Origin: Candidatus Woesearchaeota archaeon
Lineage (GTDB): Archaea; Nanobdellota; Nanobdellia; SCGC-AAA011-G17; PNOQ01
NCBI GenBank assembly: GCA_018663865.1
Contig: JABJPM010000017.1
Coordinates: 1-42,346, forward strand
Length of the DNA: 42,346 nt
Direction of reading: 5' to 3'
Under the pieces are notes generated by a model. It saw only the letters and a program-made list of their open reading frames with translations, did not search any database and had not been told where the DNA came from. The position numbers and the translations under genes were made by a program. Positions 32,853-42,346 of the stretch are shown one piece after another. Within the stretch, counting starts at the first letter, position 1. Every line of letters begins with the position of its first letter.

Positions 32853-34325
32853 TTATTCACAAAATTTCATTAATTTAACATCTCTAGTTTGTAGACTTAC
32901 CAATGGGACTCTGCAGGGTTCAGGATGGTGTCCGACTTTTTCCTGAAATTTAGTAATAGCTTGCCAACAACTTCCAGAAATTAAAGTTGTTTTACCATAA
33001 TGGCTGACGCTTGATTTATGGATGTGCCCTGAAGCAAAAAAATCAGGGACATCTTTGATTATTAAATCATCTCTGTCGGGTTCAACTACGAATAATGTTG
33101 AACCATGGGATGGCGCAAGGTGCCTTTTTTTCATTAAAAATTTCATAACTAAATCTGCACGATCATATCCTCCTTGTTCCCTGATACTTTCAACCTGGTC
33201 AATATAATAATCAAAACTATATCCATGATACATTAAAACATTAAAACCCTCAAAATTATCTTTTGATCCGATATTGACTACAGCGGGATTACTTACAATA
33301 TGGACATTATCCATTGCGTAAAGATTACTTGCAAATTCCTCATCGAGAACTGGTTGAGGTTCGGCCAATCTTAGTGCGTCATGATTTCCGGGGCAAACAA
33401 TAATTTGTAAATCGCTCCGCATTTTGGAAAAATAGTGCGCACATTGATCATATTGATCTTTTATGTTGGGAATGGATAATTCTGCCTCCTGATTAGGATA
33501 GATCCCTGCACCATCTACAATGTCACCTATAACAAATAAATATTTGACAGATTTTGCCATTTTTTGTTGCTCTTCACTACCAGAATTACCATTTATCCAA
33601 TCTATGAATTTTTCAAATTCCTTTTCCAAAAACATATCGGACCCGACATGTATATCGGAAATAAATGCGGCATGCTCATTAATTATAGATTTTTTCATAA
33701 TATTATCTTCGATTTTGACATCGGGAAAAAATAATTCATTTACAAATACAATCTTGTTCCCCATGTTGCCAACCAGCCCTATTACTTCATCGGGCACTAT
33801 ATCCTTCGCCATATCAAAAATTTCTTTTTTTGTTGAATTTATTAAAACTTTTATTTTTCCAGTTGGATCTTCAATTTCTAACATTACATTGCCATTTTTT
33901 GTCATTTTTTTACTATATACTAATCCAATCAAGGACACCTTTTCTCTTTGCATTTTAGAAAATGTCCTACTAACAGACATAACATCTGTCAATTCAATTC
34001 TGCCCTGCAATAATTTACTCATAAATTTATATCTTGTCCTGTAATGTTCGATAAAATGCCCGATTTCTATTTTACTTAATTTATCTTCATATGAATCTAT
34101 AATTTTAACATTCCCAATTAAAGGAGATTCACCCTGTGAACTTGAATTTTCACATTTTAAATATTTTAATTTTAATTTGTCTAATATGGACTTATTCAAT
34201 ACTTGACCCCTAATCTCATTGGCATGGCCATTGATTAAATCAAAAGAGGAATCATCAATCAAACTAATCACATCGGGATCAAGAAATATCCCCTCATCCA
34301 TCAAATTTTTTATTTTTTCATTCAT
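32853..34325 (-). CDS. polB: DNA polymerase D small subunit DP1 (proofreading exonuclease)
   Basis: SDIHVGS, GDIVDG, PGNHD, YHG, RHLAP, GHIH; ATG 34325 overlaps the cdc6 stop (ATGA). Confidence 0.97.
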   Translation of the reverse strand: MNEKIKNLMDEGIFLDPDVISLIDDSSFDLINGHANEIRGQVLNKSILDKLKLKYLKCENSSSQGESPLIGNVKIIDSYEDKLSKIEIGHFIEHYRTRYKFMSKLLQGRIELTDVMSVSRTFSKMQREKVSLIGLVYSKKMTKNGNVMLEIEDPTGKIKVLINSTKKEIFDMAKDIVPDEVIGLVGNMGNKIVFVNELFFPDVKIEDNIMKKSIINEHAAFISDIHVGSDMFLEKEFEKFIDWINGNSGSEEQQKMAKSVKYLFVIGDIVDGAGIYPNQEAELSIPNIKDQYDQCAHYFSKMRSDLQIIVCPGNHDALRLAEPQPVLDEEFASNLYAMDNVHIVSNPAVVNIGSKDNFEGFNVLMYHGYSFDYYIDQVESIREQGGYDRADLVMKFLMKKRHLAPSHGSTLFVVEPDRDDLIIKDVPDFFASGHIHKSSVSHYGKTTLISGSCWQAITKFQEKVGHHPEPCRVPLVSLQTRDVKLMKFCE

Positions 34326-35536
34326 ATACTGAGCCACCCACGCAATTGAGAAATTAATCCAGGTATACTTGACTGCGGCATGGCAAGACCAATTTCCTTT
34401 GTACGCCCATATCGCCCCTTACTAATAACTTTAGCATTGATTATACCCAACATGTCTAATTCTGCAATTAGGTCTGACAATCTCCTTTGTGTTAAAGGTT
34501 TTAATCCGCATTTTATGCAGAGGTTCATATATACCTCATATACATCTCCAGTAAAAAATTTCTCATTACCTTTTTTTTCATATAGATCAAAAATCGCCAA
34601 TAAAGTTAATTGTGATTGTTTAGGCAAGGTATTTATTACCTCTACAACTAAATCATTTTCTATTTTTGATTCAGCCTCATCAATATGCACTATATCCACT
34701 TTCAAATCATTTTTTCGTTCAGCTAGCTCCCCTGCAACCCTCAATAGATCTAAGGCCCTCCTGGCATCACCATGCTCCCTTGCGGCATAGGCAGCACATT
34801 TTTCAATTACTCCCTCAGAGATAGAGCCATCTTTGAATGCACCTTTTGATCTTTCAAGTAAAATATCTTGCAATTGTAATGCATTATATGATGGAAAATT
34901 TAAATCCTCCTCTGCGAGAGAAGATTTTATTCTCGGATCAAGATCGTTTGCAAACCGGAGATCGTTTGATACCCCTACAAATGTCACCTGAGTATTTTTT
35001 AATTCTGCATTCATCCGGGTTAAATTATAGAGAATTTCATCTCCTGCCTTTTTTACTAGTTGATCAATTTCATCAAGAATTAAAATTATTTGATTAGGGC
35101 CAGCCTCAATATTTTTTATGAATAATCGGTAGACTTCATCAGTAGGTAATCCTGTGACAGGAATATTCTTTTGCCCAAACTCTCTAGCCAAACTAGCAAT
35201 GAGCCTATATTCTGTATCTGCAACCCTTTTTAATTTACAATTAATATAAACTACTTTTAAGGGTAAATCCTTACTATTGGAAATCTCCCTAAGATTATTT
35301 GTTACATGCAATACTGACAAAGTTTTTCCAGTACCAGTTTTACCATATAGAAATAAATTTGAAGGTTTCTCATTTCTAAGTACTGGGGCAAGGACACCTG
35401 CAATCTCATTAATCTGCTCATCCCTGTGAGGGATAGTGTCCGGAGTATAACTTGTTTGCAAAATCTTTTTATTTTTGAAAATCGATTCTTTTCCAAGGTA
35501 ATCTTCAAAAAAATTTTTTATCCCATCTTTTGTCAT
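34322..35536 (-). CDS. cdc6: Cdc6/Orc1 replication initiator
   Basis: GKTGTGKT, ILDEID, HGDARRALDLLR, C-terminal wHTH with KGRYGRT. Confidence 0.97.
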   Translation of the reverse strand: MTKDGIKNFFEDYLGKESIFKNKKILQTSYTPDTIPHRDEQINEIAGVLAPVLRNEKPSNLFLYGKTGTGKTLSVLHVTNNLREISNSKDLPLKVVYINCKLKRVADTEYRLIASLAREFGQKNIPVTGLPTDEVYRLFIKNIEAGPNQIILILDEIDQLVKKAGDEILYNLTRMNAELKNTQVTFVGVSNDLRFANDLDPRIKSSLAEEDLNFPSYNALQLQDILLERSKGAFKDGSISEGVIEKCAAYAAREHGDARRALDLLRVAGELAERKNDLKVDIVHIDEAESKIENDLVVEVINTLPKQSQLTLLAIFDLYEKKGNEKFFTGDVYEVYMNLCIKCGLKPLTQRRLSDLIAELDMLGIINAKVISKGRYGRTKEIGLAMPQSSIPGLISQLRGWLSI

Positions 35537-35598
35537 TTTATTTTTCAAAATAGAAAATATCTATTTAAACATTGTTATATTTGAAAATAGACTCCTAG

Positions 35599-35618
35599 CC
35601 CTTCATTTCCTTTGGAAC
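35599..35618 (-). promoter_or_regulatory. Origin recognition box (ORB)
   Basis: Minus strand GTTCCAAAGGAAATGAAGGG, similar to the archaeal consensus GTTCCAGTGGAAAC...GGGG. Confidence 0.8.
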
Positions 35619-35640
35619 AATAAATTTAGAAAAAAGCATA

Positions 35641-35667
35641 CCCTTGAATTTTTATTTCTAGTAGAAA
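35641..35667 (-). promoter_or_regulatory. Degenerate ORB/mini-ORB
   Basis: Minus strand TTTCTACTAGAAATAAAAATTCAAGGG. Confidence 0.5.
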
Positions 35668-35688
35668 AATGCCCTGAATACAATTGAA

Positions 35689-35895
35689 ATATATATACTA
35701 TATAATATATTTATATAATATATATATAATATAATAATAAAACTTAAAAACAAAAATTTAATTAAAAATTAAAAATTTTTCAAATATATGCCAATACAAA
35801 CCTCCTACTGCCATAATAATATAATATAATATAATATAATATAATTATTATCGAAGATAAAACAAAAACAAAAACAAAAACAAAAAAATAAAATG
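35689..35895. repeat. AT-rich DNA-unwinding element with (ATAAT)n and (AAAAAC)n microrepeats
   Basis: TA-rich run 35689-35742, about six ATAAT units near 35816-35845, about four AAAAAC units near 35858-35887. Confidence 0.75.
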
Positions 35896-35910
35896 GACTC
35901 CATTAGAAAT
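35896..35910 (+). promoter_or_regulatory. Mini-ORB-like element
   Basis: GACTCCATTAGAAAT. Confidence 0.5.
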
Positions 35911-35926
35911 TTTAATAATTAAACAT

Positions 35927-35955
35927 CTCCACTGGCAACAAAGGTCCGGGGGGGT
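35927..35955 (+). promoter_or_regulatory. ORB with G-string
   Basis: CTCCACTGGCAACAAAGGTCCGGGGGGGT. Confidence 0.75.
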
Positions 35956-35995
35956 AAACCATAATTTTATATATTAATTAAAATATTAATAATAT

Positions 35996-36289: not shown

Positions 36290-36345
36290 GAAATTTTTAT
36301 AAACATATGCCTAATTACAATATATAATAAGGAGGATTGCCCAAA

Positions 36346-36606
36346 ATGGTTGATGATAAAAAATATGCAAAACAAATTTTAGGGAAAGTGGTAGTGAGTA
36401 AGGCCGGAAAAAGATTCGGAGAAGTAGGTAATTTAGTTTTTGAAACAAGGACTGGAGAATTATTACAAATTATCTTAAAAAATCCAACTGGTTTTACAGA
36501 AGGATTGGATTTAGAAAAAGATGCCACTGGAAATCTATTAATACCTCATAGCTCCGTCATAGCAGTAGGGGATTTTATAGTAGTAGCGGAAGAAGATATA
36601 ATCTAG
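36346..36606 (+). CDS. PRC-barrel protein, CdpB1-like cell-division factor
   Basis: ILGKVVVSKAGKRFGEVGNLVFETRTGEL...LLIPHSSVIAVGDFIVV. Confidence 0.85.
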   Translation: MVDDKKYAKQILGKVVVSKAGKRFGEVGNLVFETRTGELLQIILKNPTGFTEGLDLEKDATGNLLIPHSSVIAVGDFIVVAEEDII

Positions 36607-36649
36607 AAAGTTTTATAAATAACATGATAACATCAGGAAGGTGATAACA

Positions 36650-37054
36650 ATGTCAATAGTAGGATTCAATTTTGAAAAAATAATGGTAGAAAAAAAGAAT
36701 AAGGTTAGCTCTAATTTGAAAATCAAGAGCAATCTATCAATAGTGGACATAGAGAAAGAAAACTTGAATTTAACAAGTGCAGGAGATGTATTAAAATTCA
36801 ATTTCGAATATGGAGTGGATTACGAACCAGAGATTGGGAAAATTGTCCTAAATGGTAATTTATTATATATGGAAGATCCAGAAAATATTAAAAAAATATT
36901 GGAAGATTGGAAAAAAGATAAAAAATTGCCCAAACCATTAATGGCACAAATATTCAATACCATTTTGGCAAAGAGTAATATCAAAGCACTTTCCTTGACT
37001 CAAGAGGTTAATCTGCCACCGCATATAAAATTACCAATTTTAAAGAATAAATAA
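36650..37054 (+). CDS. Conserved archaeal hypothetical protein (possibly SecB-like fold)
   Basis: Four beta-strand-like segments, helix, and NLPPHIKLP end; AGGTGA SD. Confidence 0.7.
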   Translation: MSIVGFNFEKIMVEKKNKVSSNLKIKSNLSIVDIEKENLNLTSAGDVLKFNFEYGVDYEPEIGKIVLNGNLLYMEDPENIKKILEDWKKDKKLPKPLMAQIFNTILAKSNIKALSLTQEVNLPPHIKLPILKNK

Positions 37055-38550: not shown

Positions 38551-38600
38551 CAAATCCTTCTAACCGAATAACTTAAATAGTGGTATTGAAAACAAGGTAT

Positions 38601-38876
38601 ATGCCAAAAATAAGCGATAAAAAAATAGAAAGAATAAAAGAAGGAATAATCTCTTACCTTTATGATCACCCTGCAAAACCATTATTTACTTCTCAAATAG
38701 CGGAAGAAATGATAAGGGACGAGGAATTTATTTTGAGATTGTTGAATGAGCTCTATGCTTCAAAATTAATAAAAAAAATATCTTCAAATTCAAAAGGAAA
38801 GGAATTTTTATCGAGGAGAAAATGGACCTTAAGGGCAGAAGTATATACAAAATATAGTGAATTGGTAAATAACTAA
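38601..38876 (+). CDS. Small winged-helix DNA-binding protein
   Basis: IISYLY..PLFTSQIAEEMIRDEEFILRLLNEL..KLI...RRKWTL. Confidence 0.72.
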   Translation: MPKISDKKIERIKEGIISYLYDHPAKPLFTSQIAEEMIRDEEFILRLLNELYASKLIKKISSNSKGKEFLSRRKWTLRAEVYTKYSELVNN

Positions 38877-38931
38877 TTAGTTATATTTCTCACTTTATTT
38901 CTTTTGTTAATCAATTGCTTCTTGAGAGATT

Positions 38932-39001
38932 CAATTCATTACTAATCAATAACCGATCAATCAATCACCAATCAATCACTAATTAATCACTAATTAATCA
39001 C
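38932..39001 (+). repeat. Intergenic direct-repeat array, 11-bp unit YAATYAATCAC
   Basis: Four exact tandem units at 38958, 38969, 38980 and 38991; two degenerate units at 38932 and 38943. Confidence 0.9.
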
Positions 39002-39174
39002 GCACCATGGATACTCATATTTACTTGCCTAATCAACATAAAACTAGATCAAACGTTCTTATTTTCTGGCTTTCTCACAAATACACTTAGAAATCGGGCC
39101 TAACTTTCACTTAATACATATATTAATCTCATAAAACTATAAAAATGAACCCTCACTCTTTATTTTTGAGATAG

Positions 39175-39864
39175 ATGGATGAAAAAATTCTAAAAAAAGC
39201 TTTTGTAAAAGTAAAATCAGATATTGAAAATTTAAATAATAGGTTGGAAAATATTGAAAATACCCTGAATTTACTCATTTCTATCAAAAATAATCAAAAA
39301 AACACTAAAAACGATGGAAGTTCCAGTGGAAATGAAGGGGTCCGATCAATCAATCATTCAACAAACAATCAATCAATCACTAATCAATCACGTGCTGAGC
39401 ACAAAATCGGGCAGTATACCCCTCAAATAAGCCATAATTATGATAATTTGGAACGATCTGATCAATCACTGAGCAATCAATCACTGAGCAATCAATCCCT
39501 TTCTAAACACTCACTAAGCACTCAAAAATTAAATATTCAATCACTCAAGAAGGATCTAGAAAATCGATTTAATGCCCTCACTAGTCAAGAATTTCTAGTA
39601 TTTCTTACAATATATCAAATGGAGGAGGACCTTAAACGGCCAGTGACTTATAATGATCTATCTGAACGTTTAAACCTCACTTCTGGATGTATTAGGGGGT
39701 ATGTAAGTGCATTAATCAGGAAGAATTTACCCCTCACAAAGGCAAAAATAAACAACAGAACATTGACATTATCCATAAAATCTGATTTCAAAGAGTTAAA
39801 TCTCAAACAAAAATTAACAAATATCTACTATGATCAAGATCCAGATCAAACAAAACTATTTTAA
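39175..39864 (+). CDS. Coiled-coil + repeat linker + winged-helix protein
   Basis: N-terminal heptads; S/N/Q-rich linker; LTSQEFLVFLTIY...VTYNDLSERLNLTSGCIRGYVSALIRK wHTH. Confidence 0.8.
   Translation: MDEKILKKAFVKVKSDIENLNNRLENIENTLNLLISIKNNQKNTKNDGSSSGNEGVRSINHSTNNQSITNQSRAEHKIGQYTPQISHNYDNLERSDQSLSNQSLSNQSLSKHSLSTQKLNIQSLKKDLENRFNALTSQEFLVFLTIYQMEEDLKRPVTYNDLSERLNLTSGCIRGYVSALIRKNLPLTKAKINNRTLTLSIKSDFKELNLKQKLTNIYYDQDPDQTKLF
39320..39341 (+). promoter_or_regulatory. ORB element embedded in coding sequence
   Basis: GTTCCAGTGGAAATGAAGGGGT; 18/20 identical to the ORB at 35599-35618. Confidence 0.7.
39347..39544 (+). repeat. Intragenic copies of the CAATCAATCAC motif
   Basis: Copies at 39347, 39370, 39381, 39459, 39474, 39489; degenerate at 39504 and 39534. 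Confidence 0.85.
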
Positions 39865-39933
39865 TTATGATTTCTAGTAAAAATTATTAATTGTTGCTAA
39901 TAAATTATTCATCGTCGATAAAACTACAATATA

Positions 39934-40004
39934 ATCGTTCACCGAACGTTCGGTGAACGTTCACCGAACTGTCTATAGACGTCACCGAACGTTCGGTGAA
40001 CGAT
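39934..40004. repeat. Palindromic array of GTTCACCGAAC/GTTCGGTGAAC 11-mers
   Basis: Units at 39937, 39948, 39959, 39980 (1 mismatch) and 39991; 24-bp perfect palindrome at 39936-39959; 23-bp perfect terminal inverted repeats. Confidence 0.92.
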
Positions 40005-40041
40005 GCAAAACGTTTATATAGGGGTAATATCAAATATAGGT

Positions 40042-40641
40042 ATGTTTAATTTTTTTAAAAGAGGAAAAAATGATCCAAGGCTCGCTGAAACTATTTCAAC
40101 AATGCAGGAGAGTTTAAAAAAATCATTTACAAATATAAAGAAAGATTTTTCGATGATGGATGGCCATAATAAAACATTCCATGAAAAGCATGAAAAACAC
40201 ACAATTGATCATGGGGAGCATCGAAAAAATATCCAATTGCTTGGTGAGAGGTTAAAATCAATTGAAGAGTCACTGGGCATACTAAAGGAGATAGAAATAG
40301 TGAATGAGGAAGTGAGTGGCGAAGTTGAGGCAGATTTTGGAAATTTAGAGGATATGACTGGGGTATCTCAGAAAATATGTTATGTTCTAGCAGCATTACA
40401 AAAAGAGAACAAAGGCATGGTGACCCTAAAAACCCTTGCAGAAGAAATGTATCCTGGAAAAGAGTATGCAAAAATTAGGTCAACAATATCGCAGTATACT
40501 ACGGAGTTAGAAGAATTGGGCTATGTCCAAAAAAAGAAAAAAGGAAAACAAGTATACATCAAATCTACTGAAAAAAACCCATTTCTAAGTGAGAAGTTAA
40601 CTCCGAAAAAGGTAACAAAAAAAATCAAAATAAAAAAATAA
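40042..40641 (+). CDS. Coiled-coil + winged-helix protein
   Basis: TTTATATA at 40013-40020 then ATG 40042; VTLKTLAEEMYPGKEYAKIRSTISQYTTELEELGYVQKKKKGKQVYI; Lys-rich tail. Confidence 0.8.
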   Translation: MFNFFKRGKNDPRLAETISTMQESLKKSFTNIKKDFSMMDGHNKTFHEKHEKHTIDHGEHRKNIQLLGERLKSIEESLGILKEIEIVNEEVSGEVEADFGNLEDMTGVSQKICYVLAALQKENKGMVTLKTLAEEMYPGKEYAKIRSTISQYTTELEELGYVQKKKKGKQVYIKSTEKNPFLSEKLTPKKVTKKIKIKK

Positions 40642-40642
40642 T

Positions 40643-40840
40643 ATGGTAAGAACAAAGAAAAAAGGAAAAAATAGGAAATATGTTTTTTCATTTGAGGATC
40701 CAGTAAACTTAATGTTGCATTTTATAGGGTTAATCATAATCATTTATGGGGCTTGGTTCCATAATGTTGCTTGGGCAGTTACAGGATTCATTCCAATGTT
40801 GGTTGGAGATTTATGGTTAAAAATACATTCAAAAGTCTAA
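40643..40840 (+). CDS. Small two-TM membrane protein
   Basis: Basic N-terminus and two hydrophobic segments; starts 1 bp after the upstream stop. Confidence 0.65.
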   Translation: MVRTKKKGKNRKYVFSFEDPVNLMLHFIGLIIIIYGAWFHNVAWAVTGFIPMLVGDLWLKIHSKV

Positions 40841-41359: not shown

Positions 41360-41531
41360 AGTATAATCTAGAAAAAATATTATATAAATGTTTCCATTTT
41401 GACTACTTCCCAGAAATAACACTATATCAAATAAATATTACAATCAAAAACTAAAAAATTCAATCAAAATCAAAATCAAAATCGAAATTTAAGATACATT
41501 TTTATACATTTTTCCAATAAGGTCAGTTATT

Positions 41532-41594: not shown

Positions 41595-42346
41595 ATGGTC
41601 GAAAATAAATTAAAAACTGCAATCTATGTAAGGGTATCTACCGATGAACAAGCAAAAGAGGGGATCTCAATATCTGCTCAAATCGATAGGTGTCAAAACT
41701 ATTGCAAAGCGCGATCTTGGAAAGTAATTAATATTTATACTGATGCAGGATATTCTGCTGGTTCAATGAAGCGTCCAGCCGTCCAACAATTATTTCAAGA
41801 TCTACGTGAAAATAAATTTGAAAATATTTTAGTCTATAAATTTGATAGGTTCTCGAGAAATGTCAGAGACTTAATAACTTTTTTAGATAATCTGAAAGCT
41901 CAAGAAGTAAATTTTACATCTGTTACGGAAAATATAGATACTACGACTGCAATGGGGGAAGCATTTTTTCAGATGATTGGTGTTTTTGCACAATTGGAGA
42001 GGGGGATGGTAAAAGAACGAGTAAAGTTAGCATTCGATAAGAAAATTAGCGATGGAGAATCATTAAGTCGTGCACCAAAAGGATATATGTATAATAATGG
42101 GAAATTAATCGTCGACAAAAAAAATTCAAACGAAATAAAACAAATTTTTGATATGAGGGCGGCAGGAATACATTATAAAATAATCTCGGACAAATTCAAT
42201 ATTCCCATATCTACATTGTATAACATAATAAAAAATCCAACCTATGCTGGAAAAATAAAGTATAATGGTGAAATATATGAGGGAACTCATAGCGCAATCA
42301 TAGATCCCGCATTATTCAACAATCTAAATCCCTTGCAATCTATAAA
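41595..42346 (+). CDS. Serine recombinase (resolvase catalytic domain + recombinase domain), runs off window
   Basis: Not in ORF track: MVENKLKTAIYVRVSTDEQ...SAGSMKRP...YKFDRFSRN...AQLER...APKGY...KNPTYAG...GTHSAII. Confidence 0.95.
   Translation, partial: MVENKLKTAIYVRVSTDEQAKEGISISAQIDRCQNYCKARSWKVINIYTDAGYSAGSMKRPAVQQLFQDLRENKFENILVYKFDRFSRNVRDLITFLDNLKAQEVNFTSVTENIDTTTAMGEAFFQMIGVFAQLERGMVKERVKLAFDKKISDGESLSRAPKGYMYNNGKLIVDKKNSNEIKQIFDMRAAGIHYKIISDKFNIPISTLYNIIKNPTYAGKIKYNGEIYEGTHSAIIDPALFNNLNPLQSI

What the first reader, a model, noticed from the sequence alone, without database searches (positions are those of the whole stretch)
38601..40641. Origin-proximal module of three winged-helix genes interleaved with two 11-bp-periodic DNA arrays: candidate undescribed replication-control or segregation system
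Seen: 2.6-4.7 kb from oriC, three co-oriented wHTH genes (two with N-terminal coiled coils) are separated by a direct-repeat array (YAATYAATCAC) and a palindromic array (GTTCACCGAAC). Both units are about one helical turn long, and an ORB lies inside the middle gene. Known: helically phased arrays next to DNA-binding genes characterise plasmid centromeres (parC/parH/tubC), iterons and Sulfolobus SegB/AspA sites. Inference: these proteins may bind the arrays to organise or segregate the origin, or to regulate initiation. No ParA/SegA ATPase is present in this window.
Basis: partly seen in the sequence, partly recalled or inferred. Interest (0 to 1): 0.85.

Follow-up and report, generated by a model that had tools for sequence, protein, structure and literature searches.

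The report
Replication-initiator box hidden inside a gene
Next to the replication origin of a tiny marine archaeon lie three DNA-binding genes, one of which carries inside its own coding sequence a strictly conserved docking site for the replication initiator, which suggests an undescribed control point for genome copying.

Summary
Three co-oriented winged-helix genes (g1 38601-38876, g2 39175-39864, g3 40042-40641) lie 2.6-4.6 kb from the cdc6-adjacent oriC. An 11-bp direct-repeat array, an 11-bp palindromic array and an ORB inside g2 are all present. The block cdc6-oriC-PRC-o137-g1-g2-g3 is syntenic across the order and in a family (f50) outside it.

The main result is the ORB. Its codons TCC/GGA/AAT/GGG are invariant in 21 of 21 orthologues (GGA 20 of 20), while conserved residues elsewhere vary synonymously. 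The 20-nt pattern occurs in 122 of 201 order genomes and 141 of 301 class genomes, and its reversed control in none. One genus keeps a second copy upstream of g2, outside its reading frame. It is therefore a DNA element, most likely an extra-origin Orc1/Cdc6 site.

The palindromic array abuts the TATA box of g3, is the only such cluster in the genome and is conserved, so it is probably the g3 operator. The direct-repeat array is a diverged copy of the repeat tract that follows the in-gene ORB.

No NTPase partner is linked, so a segregation system is unsupported. Function is inferred, not shown. This is a new variant of a known kind: ORBs inside dp1 of Thermococcales.

The parts
34322..35548 (-). 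orc1/cdc6 initiator gene (408 aa)
   Evidence: ORF. Orthologues found in 40 of 41 related genomes.
35549..35995 (.). oriC spacer: AT-rich tract flanked by inverted ORB-like boxes (35599-35617 on the minus strand, 35928-35955 on the plus strand)
   Evidence: The cumulative GC-skew minimum lies here. Relatives show the same inverted layout.
36337..37054 (+). PRC-barrel gene (36337-36606) and the conserved hypothetical gene o137 (36641-37054). Both belong to the conserved origin-side block.
   Evidence: Pfam PRC, E 1.5e-7. Synteny. o137 has no family.
38601..38876 (+). g1: 91-aa small putative winged-helix protein
   Evidence: Found in 26 of 41 relatives. Its promoter TTAACCGAATAACTTAAATAG is conserved.
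38944..39001 (+). Direct-repeat array X1 (4 x 11 bp, CAATCAATCAC / TAATTAATCAC). It is a diverged copy of the in-gene tract X2.
   Evidence: Local alignment to 39342-39393 scores 58 against a shuffle maximum of 25.
39138..39145 (+). TATA box of g2 (TATAAAAA)
   Evidence: Sequence. CATAAAACTATAAAAAT is conserved in relatives directly behind their X1 arrays. The promoter geometry is recalled knowledge.
39175..39864 (+). g2: N-terminal helix (residues 3-43), disordered linker (43-116) and MarR-like winged helix (112-219)
   Evidence: Found in 36 of 41 relatives. No curated family.
39320..39343 (+). ORB (origin recognition box) embedded in the g2 linker: GTTCCAGTGGAAATGAAGGGGTCC, read as SSGNEGV
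   Evidence: Unique in the genome. Synonymous sites are invariant in 21 orthologues. The pattern occurs in 122 of 201 and 141 of 301 genomes with 0 control hits. A second copy upstream of g2, outside its reading frame, is seen in L008.
39342..39500 (+). In-gene repeat tract X2: (AATC)-type repeats at 39342-39393 and ATCAATCACTGAGCA x 2.5 at 39461-39497, read as NQS-type peptide repeats
   Evidence: The repeat type differs between lineages (AATC, ATTC, CACT, CAAA, CAGA, CCAA).
39934..40004 (.). Palindromic array: GTTCNNNGAAC x 3, then GTCTATAGAC, then 2 more units, at 11-bp spacing
   Evidence: Conserved in 6 of 6 close orthologous loci, with diverged versions in L040, L041, L042 and L043.
40013..40020 (+). 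TATA box of g3 (TTTATATA), 22 nt before the ATG at 40042
   Evidence: Sequence. AAAACGTTTATATA is conserved in relatives.
40042..40641 (+). g3: conserved MFxFFKK N-terminus, 66-residue helix, and winged helix (residues 107-175)
   Evidence: The g2 and g3 winged helices are homologous (hhalign probability 95.9%, E 6e-9).
40643..40840 (+). tm65: small protein with two hydrophobic stretches (read by eye as transmembrane). It starts 2 nt after the g3 stop and stays next to g3 or g3-like genes in relatives.

Best explanation
This is the far end of a conserved origin-side gene block (cdc6 - oriC - PRC barrel - o137 - g1 - g2 - g3/g3-like - tm65) of a marine Woesearchaeota-type DPANN archaeon. g1, g2 and g3 are winged-helix DNA-binding proteins with no curated family.

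The DNA encoding the disordered linker of g2 contains a true origin recognition box. This box is kept by selection on the DNA itself, and it is followed by a lineage-specific short-repeat tract (X2). I infer that Orc1/Cdc6 binds there. That would make g2 a satellite Orc1 site of oriC that couples initiator occupancy to g2 transcription and/or to a higher-order origin complex. The ORB cluster inside dp1 of Thermococcales offers a precedent, and bacterial extra-origin DnaA-box clusters work in a comparable way.

The upstream 'direct-repeat array' (X1) is a diverged duplicate of X2, and ancestrally of ORB+X2. It normally sits directly upstream of the g2 TATA box.

The palindromic 11-bp array abuts the BRE/TATA of leaderless g3. 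It is most likely the operator on which dimeric g3 binds cooperatively, on one face of the helix, to control its own g3-tm65 operon.

Shown: the anatomy, its conservation, DNA-level constraint on the ORB, origin linkage, and the folds. Inferred: who binds what, and the regulatory outcome.
For: (1) Codons. At the motif, TCC is used in 21/21 orthologues, GGA in 20/20, AAT in 21/21 and GGG in 21/21. Conserved residues in the wHTH vary synonymously: Gly at column 239 uses GGA 4, GGC 3, GGG 8, GGT 3; Ser at column 246 uses AGT 9, AGC 8, TCC 2; Leu at column 212 uses five codons. The base before TCC is T in 19/21 although that codon's amino acid varies.

(2) Disorder. The motif lies in a segment modelled as disordered (pLDDT below 50 for residues 43-116).

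(3) Same box at oriC. GTTCCAAAGGAAATGAAGGG stands in the cdc6-upstream spacer of this genome. ORB-like boxes of the same type lie in inverted pairs in the cdc6 spacers of relatives. It also matches the Pyrococcus 13-mer TTCCAGTGGAACT and the 'TTCC'/'GAA' core quoted in PMC1904270.

(4) Breadth. The 20-nt pattern occurs in 122/201 order genomes and 141/301 class genomes, mostly once per genome, while the reversed control occurs in 0. In 9 of 12 fetched loci it is in frame inside a g2-like ORF.

(5) Copy outside g2. In G034 an almost identical ORB+X unit lies upstream of g2, outside its reading frame. Six genomes of that genus show two hits 326-348 nt apart.

(6) Origin linkage. 24 of 24 same-contig cases are 3.6-14.5 kb apart, and in family f50 5/5 are 1.7-6.4 kb.

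(7) X1/X2 likeness. The similarity is lineage-specific, with longest common substrings of 15-23 nt on the diagonal for the WIN block, L040, L042 and L044. The alignments start directly behind GGGGT.

(8) The g3 array. It ends 10 nt before the TATA box, is the only such cluster in the genome, is conserved in 6/6 close loci, and occurs as variant arrays before more distant g3 and g3-like genes.

(9) Stability. The stretch is identical in contigs from other samples (records 20 and 26).
Against: No binding was measured and no expression data exist.

A single ORB bound Pyrococcus Cdc6 well in vitro, but isolated 13-bp mini-ORBs were not bound in vivo (PMC1904270), so occupancy of a lone site is not certain.

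79 of 201 order genomes and 160 of 301 class genomes lack the exact 20-mer. Some carry near variants (L033, L040).

The recognition helices of g1 and g2 are too conserved to track the fast-changing X tracts. X may therefore be a slippage-prone, nearly neutral linker homogenised by gene conversion rather than a binding array. In family f50 no upstream X copy is detectable: 0 of 5 loci score above shuffles.

The g3 array lies upstream of BRE/TATA, which fits activation as well as repression. Its only target being its own promoter is also what a centromere-binding protein would show.

Origin linkage could be passive synteny in small, slowly rearranging genomes.
Confidence: 0.6

Rival explanations
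1. Centromere-like segregation or tethering module. g3 would bind its helically phased, origin-proximal array as ParR binds parC, TubR binds tubC or AspA binds its site, and would organise or anchor the origin region. The anchor might be its conserved MFxFFKK N-terminus, its long coiled coil and the co-transcribed small membrane protein tm65. The array would double as the operator, as in plasmid partition cassettes.
For: There are five to six sites at 11-bp spacing, and this is the only such cluster in the assembly. It is origin-proximal and conserved. g3 has a 66-residue helix plus a wHTH. The best PDB profile hit of g3 is AspA, though only at E 0.008. TubR and AspA appear among the fold matches (ranks 10, 35 and 39). 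The N-terminal hydrophobic-basic motif is conserved in g3 and g3-like proteins of two families. tm65 stays adjacent to g3.
Against: No ParA, ParM or TubZ-type gene lies in the block in any of the 25 loci examined. The one ParA/MinD-like gene and the SMC gene are on other contigs with unrelated neighbours. The AspA and TubR matches are no better than those to ordinary ArsR/MarR repressors, and none reaches E 0.001. There is a single array rather than several dispersed sites.
Confidence: 0.17
2. Ordinary transcription-factor cassette with neutral repeats. The three genes would be regulators unrelated to replication. The AATC-type arrays would be microsatellite slippage and gene-conversion products in an unconstrained linker and spacer, and origin proximity would be inherited synteny. 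Only the ORB-like box would need a special explanation.
For: The X tracts are tetranucleotide repeats whose sequence changes between lineages, while the peptide merely reads them out (NQSI, IHSF, HSLT, QTNK). Family f50 lacks the upstream copy. The 11-bp phasing of X1 is peculiar to this genome. The whole neighbourhood, not only the three genes, is syntenic.
Against: It does not explain the invariant synonymous sites of the ORB, the conserved second copy outside g2, or the match to the oriC boxes. It also does not explain the strict conservation of the GTTCN3GAAC/GTCTATAGAC array at the g3 promoter.
Confidence: 0.15
3. Second replication origin, or part of a bipartite origin. The ORB plus flanking repeats in and before g2 (two direct ORB+X units in one genus) would mark a site where unwinding or MCM loading happens. 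g2 would be an origin-specific accessory factor, as the winged-helix protein WhiP is at Sulfolobus oriC3 (recalled).
For: The ORB is better conserved than the oriC boxes themselves. The stretch between X1 and the ORB is AT-rich promoter and 5' coding DNA. Genus g17 has two full boxes about 330 bp apart. In family f50 only three short genes (PRC, o137, g1; about 1.4 kb in L057) separate cdc6 from g2.
Against: There is only one box in most genomes, and where there are two they are direct, not inverted. A complete canonical origin (inverted boxes around an AT-rich tract) already exists beside cdc6. The GC-skew minimum is at the cdc6 spacer.
Confidence: 0.08

Closest known systems
ORB / mini-ORB cluster inside the dp1 gene of Pyrococcus and Thermococcus (Matsunaga et al. 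2007, PMC1904270; passages read)
   Same: Origin recognition boxes lie inside a protein-coding gene a few kb from oriC and cdc6, and are conserved across an order. In Pyrococcus they are bound by Cdc6/Orc1 in vivo and in vitro. The core TTCC...GAA is the same, and the 13-mer differs at one position.
   Different: Here there is one long box rather than a cluster. It sits in a winged-helix gene of unknown function, not in the polymerase gene. It lies in the part that encodes a disordered linker and is followed by a variable short-repeat tract. It is seen class-wide in DPANN genomes, and binding is untested. I found no ORB-like cluster in the dp1 gene of this window.
Bacterial extra-origin initiator-box loci (datA, DARS, DnaA boxes in the dnaA promoter); recalled, not from a call
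   Same: High-affinity initiator sites outside the unwinding region but near the origin. They serve to titrate or regulate the initiator, or to couple a gene's expression to initiator level.
   Different: A different initiator (DnaA, not Orc1/Cdc6) and non-coding locations. This is a working analogy only, and no homology is implied.
Plasmid partition centromeres with their binding proteins (ParR/parC, TubR/tubC, pNOB8 AspA); recalled, plus PDB hits
   Same: An array of short sites about 11 bp apart lies directly before the gene of a small DNA-binding protein, where it also acts as the operator. TubR and AspA are winged-helix proteins.
   Different: No NTPase or adaptor gene is present in the cassette. 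The locus is chromosomal and conserved class-wide. Similarity to AspA and TubR is at the level of any winged helix.
MarR-family regulators (ST1710, MepR, MexR)
   Same: The g2 C-terminal domain superposes on MarR-family structures (Foldseek E 4e-4 to 2e-3). A dimeric wHTH acting on a palindromic operator near its own promoter is the expected behaviour for g3.
   Different: Neither protein reaches any Pfam or NCBIfam cut-off. Both carry a long extra N-terminal helix and a disordered linker that MarR proteins lack.

Membership tests
Archaeal origin recognition box (ORB) | Core TTCC ... GAA with a short dyad (TTCCAGTGGAA-type 13-mer) | tested here: met
   39321-39333 reads TTCCAGTGGAAAT. The Pyrococcus 13-mer TTCCAGTGGAACT and the 'TTCC'/'GAA' core are quoted in PMC1904270.
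Archaeal origin recognition box (ORB) | G-rich stretch a few bases 3' of the dyad in the long form of the box (recalled from the Sulfolobus and haloarchaeal literature) | tested here: met
   GGGG lies at 39337-39340 and is invariant as codon GGG plus the G of the next codon in 21/21 orthologues. That this feature defines the family is recalled, not taken from a call.
Archaeal origin recognition box (ORB) | The same box type occurs in inverted copies around an AT-rich tract next to orc1/cdc6 | tested here: met
   This holds for the oriC copies of this genome and of relatives. The g2 copy itself is single and inside a gene.
Archaeal origin recognition box (ORB) | Specific binding by Orc1/Cdc6 | not testable with these tools
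   Needs EMSA, footprinting or DAP-seq.
Partition (segregation) cassette of ParR/parC, TubR/tubC or AspA-ParB-ParA type | A motor NTPase gene (ParA, ParM or TubZ) in the same cassette | tested here: not met
   None was found in the window or in 25 orthologous loci. The ParA/MinD-like gene is at C23:6576-7340 and SMC is on C21, both unlinked.
Partition (segregation) cassette of ParR/parC, TubR/tubC or AspA-ParB-ParA type | Array of phased short repeats at the promoter of the DNA-binding gene | tested here: met
   Array 39934-40004 has units at 11-bp spacing and ends 10 nt before the g3 TATA box.
Partition (segregation) cassette of ParR/parC, TubR/tubC or AspA-ParB-ParA type | Sequence or fold kinship of the binding protein with ParR, TubR or AspA beyond a generic winged helix | tested here: not met
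   The AspA profile hit has E 0.008 over 43 residues. For TubR, the g1 profile hit has E 0.28. Foldseek gives no match at E 0.001 or better, and ArsR-type repressors rank first.
MarR family (Pfam PF01047 / PF12802) | Score above the curated Pfam cut-off | tested here: not met
   MarR_2 scores 12.8 bits (g1) and 14.5 bits (g3) against a cut-off of 27. Only 1 of 17 g2 homologues hits MarR, at E 0.0035.
MarR family (Pfam PF01047 / PF12802) | Winged-helix fold with flanking dimerisation helices | tested here: met
   The g2 model (residues 112-219) matches ST1710, MepR and MexR at E 4e-4 to 2e-3.

The most novel reading that the evidence does not exclude
g2 with its embedded box would be a class-wide, dedicated initiator-control locus of Nanobdellota. 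A top-affinity Orc1/Cdc6 site is written into the gene of an origin-associated winged-helix protein, so that initiator occupancy and g2 synthesis gate each other. This would be an archaeal counterpart of datA or dnaA autoregulation. The adjacent G-poor short-repeat tract would serve as a binding or melting platform. Alongside, g3-tm65 would hold the unique origin-proximal palindromic array at the membrane.
Probability: 0.2. Interest if true: 0.85.

Novelty: new variant of a known kind. Interest (0 to 1): 0.7.

Why it matters
How archaea with a single Orc1/Cdc6-dependent origin limit initiation to once per cycle is largely unknown, and nothing is known for the uncultured DPANN archaea.

A coding-embedded initiator box kept letter for letter across a whole class, inside a core gene that stays beside the origin, gives a concrete and cheaply testable candidate for such control. 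Only three recombinant proteins and two short DNA probes are needed.

It is also a clean natural example of a DNA signal overriding synonymous codon choice and dictating a conserved peptide in a disordered linker. This is a caution for anyone who reads conserved short linear motifs as protein features.

It extends the unexplained dp1-ORB observation of Thermococcales to a distant lineage, which suggests that satellite ORBs near origins are a general archaeal feature.

Tried and rejected
Peptide-motif reading of SxGNxGV: rejected because the synonymous sites are invariant and a second copy lies outside g2's reading frame. Overlapping-gene explanation for that invariance: no ORF of 40 aa or more in another frame or strand covers 39321-39343. 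Internal Shine-Dalgarno reading of GGGGT: no in-frame start codon follows.

Rfam and tRNA scans of the window found nothing. The third genomic hit of the loose ORB pattern (C30:8352) lies at the start of a 372-aa gene and was set aside as chance. The motif CTCTCACTTT, repeated in the long g2-g3 spacers of L028-L030, is rare in this genome (2-8 copies) and was not pursued. I looked for an ORB cluster in the dp1 gene of this window, as in Pyrococcus, and found none.

Curated families: Pfam and NCBIfam give no hit above cut-off for g1, g2, g3 or o137. All 49 g2 homologues from the large protein search are unnamed or 'hypothetical'. The ESM Atlas gave only unnamed Woesearchaeota and Nanobdellota clusters.

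Idea that the g3 N-terminus (MFxFFKK) is a PCNA-interacting motif: the complex job of G003 PCNA with g3 residues 1-80 returned 'no answer'. This is no evidence either way. The PCNA gene of G000 is cut by a contig end, so the same-genus genome G003 was used.

Expression: no RNA holder was listed. Contigs of four DNA runs were laid instead. They show the stretch unchanged in other samples, with short high-depth contigs on the AATC array that probably come from relatives.

Upstream X copy in family f50: not found, 0 of 5 above shuffles.

Literature. 'origin recognition box' + 'DPANN' gave 0 papers. Searches on Woesearchaeota/replication origin/Orc1 and on DPANN/Cdc6/oriC/ORB listed nothing on this element (listings only). 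The Nanobdellota complete-genome preprint 10.64898/2026.05.13.725050 has 0 occurrences of 'ORB' or 'origin recognition'. It names a single-copy winged-helix marker OG0000296 that may be g1 or g2 (passages only); its OG tables and all supplements were not visible to me.

Full report
WHAT IS THERE. The window is the whole contig C6 of a 594,504-base, 31-contig assembly (93% complete, about 31% G+C). Protein names of close homologues point to Woesearchaeota. The orc1/cdc6 gene (34322-35548, minus strand) and the PolD small-subunit gene lie to its left. The 447-bp spacer 35549-35995 has the anatomy of an archaeal origin: an AT-rich tract with simple repeats, flanked by ORB-like boxes in inverted orientation (35599-35617 minus, 35928-35955 plus). 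The cumulative GC skew has its minimum there. To the right, all on the plus strand, follow a small membrane protein, a PRC-barrel protein, the conserved hypothetical o137, two further genes, then g1 (38601-38876), g2 (39175-39864), g3 (40042-40641) and the small gene tm65, which has two hydrophobic stretches. The contig ends inside a serine recombinase gene.

Tandem Repeats Finder reports the direct array (38958-39001, period 11, 4.0 copies, 93% matches) and the palindromic array (39936-40002, periods 11 and 22). The latter also holds 23-nt perfect inverted arms. All four exact GTTCACCGAAC copies of the assembly lie in this one array. So do 4 of the 8 GTTCN3GAAC sites, which form the only cluster; the shuffle mean is 5.5 for the whole genome. 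Five of the nine AATCAATCAC copies lie in this locus. TTCCAGTGGAAA occurs once in the assembly, inside g2.

The proteins reach no curated family cut-off. AlphaFold2 models give g3 a 66-residue helix plus a classical winged helix. g2 gets an N-terminal helix, a disordered stretch (residues 43-116) and a winged helix with flanking helices that matches MarR-family structures at E 4e-4 to 2e-3. The g2 and g3 DNA-binding domains are homologous (hhalign 95.9%, E 6e-9). For g1 the winged-helix call rests on weak profile hits only.

CONSERVATION AND ORIGIN LINKAGE. Among 41 genomes (own genome, genus, family, order), g2 is found in 36, g1 in 26, g3 in 21 and cdc6 in 40. In 24 of the 36 genomes with g2, g2 and cdc6 share a contig, and in all 24 they are 3.6-14.5 kb apart. 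In the other 12 they lie on different contigs or the origin-type cdc6 was not found. In five of these 12 the cdc6 hit starts within 230 nt of a contig end.

I fetched 20 of the 40 relatives' loci. tblastn shows the whole run tm97-PRC-o137-(tm229-JAB)-g1-g2-g3-tm65 in the same order. Genomes that seemed to lack g3 carry a g3-like gene on the opposite strand between g2 and tm65. It has the same N-terminal motif and helix but another HTH type, and was found in 7 of 7 such loci examined. In five genomes of family f50, which lies outside the window's order in the class-level sample, the block is cdc6, oriC, PRC, o137, g1, g2, with a convergent g3-like gene. There the in-gene box is 1.7-6.4 kb from cdc6.

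THE KEY FINDING: THE BOX INSIDE g2 IS A DNA ELEMENT. The box GTTCCAGTGGAAATGAAGGGGTCC is read as SSGNEGV. In 21 orthologues collected by protein similarity, not by the motif, the codons are TCC 21/21, GGA 20/20, AAT 21/21 and GGG 21/21. Equally conserved residues in the DNA-binding domain use two to five synonymous codons: one Gly uses GGA 4, GGC 3, GGG 8, GGT 3, and one Ser uses AGT 9, AGC 8, TCC 2. The base before TCC is T in 19 of 21 although that codon encodes S, F, I, N, T or V. The variable positions coincide with those that vary between the oriC boxes. The peptide lies in the segment modelled as disordered.

The 20-nt pattern TCCANNGGAAATNANGGGGT occurs in 122 of 201 genomes sampled over the order and in 141 of 301 sampled over the class, mostly once per genome. 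The same pattern read backwards occurs in none. One of the 141 is the unpublished genome G404, on which nothing depends. Of 12 loci fetched, nine have the box in frame in a g2-like ORF with the coiled-coil N-terminus and the winged helix, and three do not (L045-L047). In G034 an almost identical box plus flanking repeats stands a second time upstream of g2, outside its reading frame. Six genomes of that genus show two hits 326-348 nt apart.

The box matches the box in this genome's oriC spacer (GTTCCAAAGGAAATGAAGGG). It also matches the Pyrococcus 13-mer and the TTCC/GAA core quoted by Matsunaga et al. 2007. Those authors showed that an ORB cluster inside the dp1 gene is bound by Cdc6/Orc1 and conserved in Thermococcales. 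I conclude with high confidence (about 0.9) that the box is kept by selection on the DNA. With less confidence (about 0.7) I conclude that Orc1/Cdc6 is what reads it.

THE DIRECT-REPEAT ARRAY. Behind the box every lineage has a short-repeat tract whose unit differs: AATC, ATTC, CACT, CAAA, CAGA, CCAA, or a 30-nt unit. The protein simply reads it out as NQSI, IHSF, HSLT, QTNK and so on.

Longest common substrings are 15-23 nt on the diagonal of a cross-genome matrix for the window's group, L040, L042 and L044, against 5-14 nt for unrelated pairs. Local alignments exceed the best of 50 shuffles in 14 of 17 genomes, clearly so in 9; L035, L039 and L041 do not. The alignments start directly behind GGGGT.

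In relatives the copy ends at the g2 TATA box. In this window about 135 bp, including a degenerate second copy of the promoter, separate them. The regular 11-bp phasing is peculiar to this genome. Family f50 has no detectable upstream copy (0 of 5). The recognition helices of g1 and g2 are too constant to follow these changes. The array is thus best seen as the remnant of a duplicated box-plus-tract unit kept similar by conversion. Whether any protein uses it is open.

THE PALINDROMIC ARRAY. Units GTTCNNNGAAC start at 39937, 39948 and 39959. A conserved GTCTATAGAC follows, and then two more units, all at 11-bp (once 10-bp) spacing. The last unit ends 10 nt before TTTATATA (40013-40020), which lies 22 nt before the ATG of g3, so the mRNA is leaderless or nearly so (promoter geometry is recalled knowledge).

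The same layout is present in 6 of 6 close orthologous loci. More distant g3 genes have variant arrays in the same place: GTTCAC-type in L040, L041 and L043, and a different repeat where the recognition helix differs in L042. g3-like genes with another HTH have TTGAAC/GTTCAA or TGTTTAAACA arrays. This qualitative covariation, and the uniqueness of the cluster in the genome, fit an autoregulatory operator bound cooperatively by a dimeric winged-helix protein. They would fit a centromere-like site equally well.

SEGREGATION. No NTPase gene lies in the block in the window or in 25 orthologous loci. The only ParA/MinD-like gene (C23:6576-7340) and the SMC gene (C21) are on other contigs among unrelated genes. 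Similarity of g3 to AspA (E 0.008 over 43 residues) and the TubR and AspA fold matches are at the level of any winged helix, and none reaches E 0.001. A defining feature of partition cassettes is therefore not met. A tethering role for g3-tm65 remains a possibility.

KNOWN OR NEW. ORBs inside a coding gene near oriC are known from Thermococcales dp1. Operators on the promoters of winged-helix genes are commonplace. New here are four things: the host gene, the position in a disordered-linker coding segment, the letter-perfect conservation across a DPANN class, and the coupled repeat tract. My searches found no description. Supplements and the orthogroup tables of the Nanobdellota preprint were not visible.

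VERDICT. The best reading has confidence 0.6, interest is 0.7, and this is a new variant of a known kind.

Noticed in passing
window 41595-42346 (+), and 41462-41488: The contig ends inside a large serine recombinase gene (Resolvase E 2e-41, Recombinase E 8e-7). It follows 750 bp of non-coding AT-rich DNA that holds an (AATCAA)4.5 repeat. This may be the edge of an integrated element or the cause of the assembly break.
   Followed up: no
window 36337-37054; loci L057-L061: A PRC-barrel protein and the 137-aa hypothetical o137 always lie between oriC and g1-g2, also in family f50. o137 has look-alikes in Aenigmatarchaeota, Methanobacteriota and Thermoplasmatota but no named family.
   Followed up: partly
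window 38551-38600 and orthologous loci: The g1 promoter TTAACCGAATAACTTAAATAG is almost invariant across the order. Its ACCGAA matches a half-unit of the g3 array (TTCACCGAAT in L026). It could be a shared operator half-site or just the local BRE.
   Followed up: partly
window 40042-40068; g3 and g3-like genes in L025-L061: A conserved N-terminus MF-x-(F/W)-F-F-K-K precedes the long helix in both g3 subfamilies. It may be a membrane-targeting or short docking motif, and its meaning is unknown.
   Followed up: partly
L028, L029, L030 (g2-g3 spacers of about 490-510 bp): These relatives have a much longer g2-g3 spacer with 3-4 copies of ACTCTCACTTTT about 80 bp apart. The motif is rare in the window's genome.
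   Followed up: partly
window 39002-39137: About 135 bp lie between the X1 array and the g2 TATA box that relatives lack. They include a degenerate copy of the promoter (AATCAACATAAAACTAGATCAAAC against AATCTCATAAAACTATAAAAATG) and a 27-codon ORF starting at 39008.
   Followed up: no
L053 / L061 (G402) g2 gene; L047 (G423): Some g2 genes outside the order carry a second, partial box inside the linker (GCACTGGAAATGAAGGGGTTCC after a CCAA tract). L047 has a full box just before a partial one.
   Followed up: no
G000 contig C15:25889-26695: A second, divergent orc1/cdc6 paralogue (35% identity) is present in this genome and in most relatives. Which paralogue would read the g2 box is unknown.
   Followed up: no
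window 38905-39066 in runs X7, X8, X10, X12: Short 41-nt contigs of very high depth (100-400x) match the AATC array with 4 differences. Similar repeats are therefore abundant in the same seawater communities, probably from related archaea.
   Followed up: no
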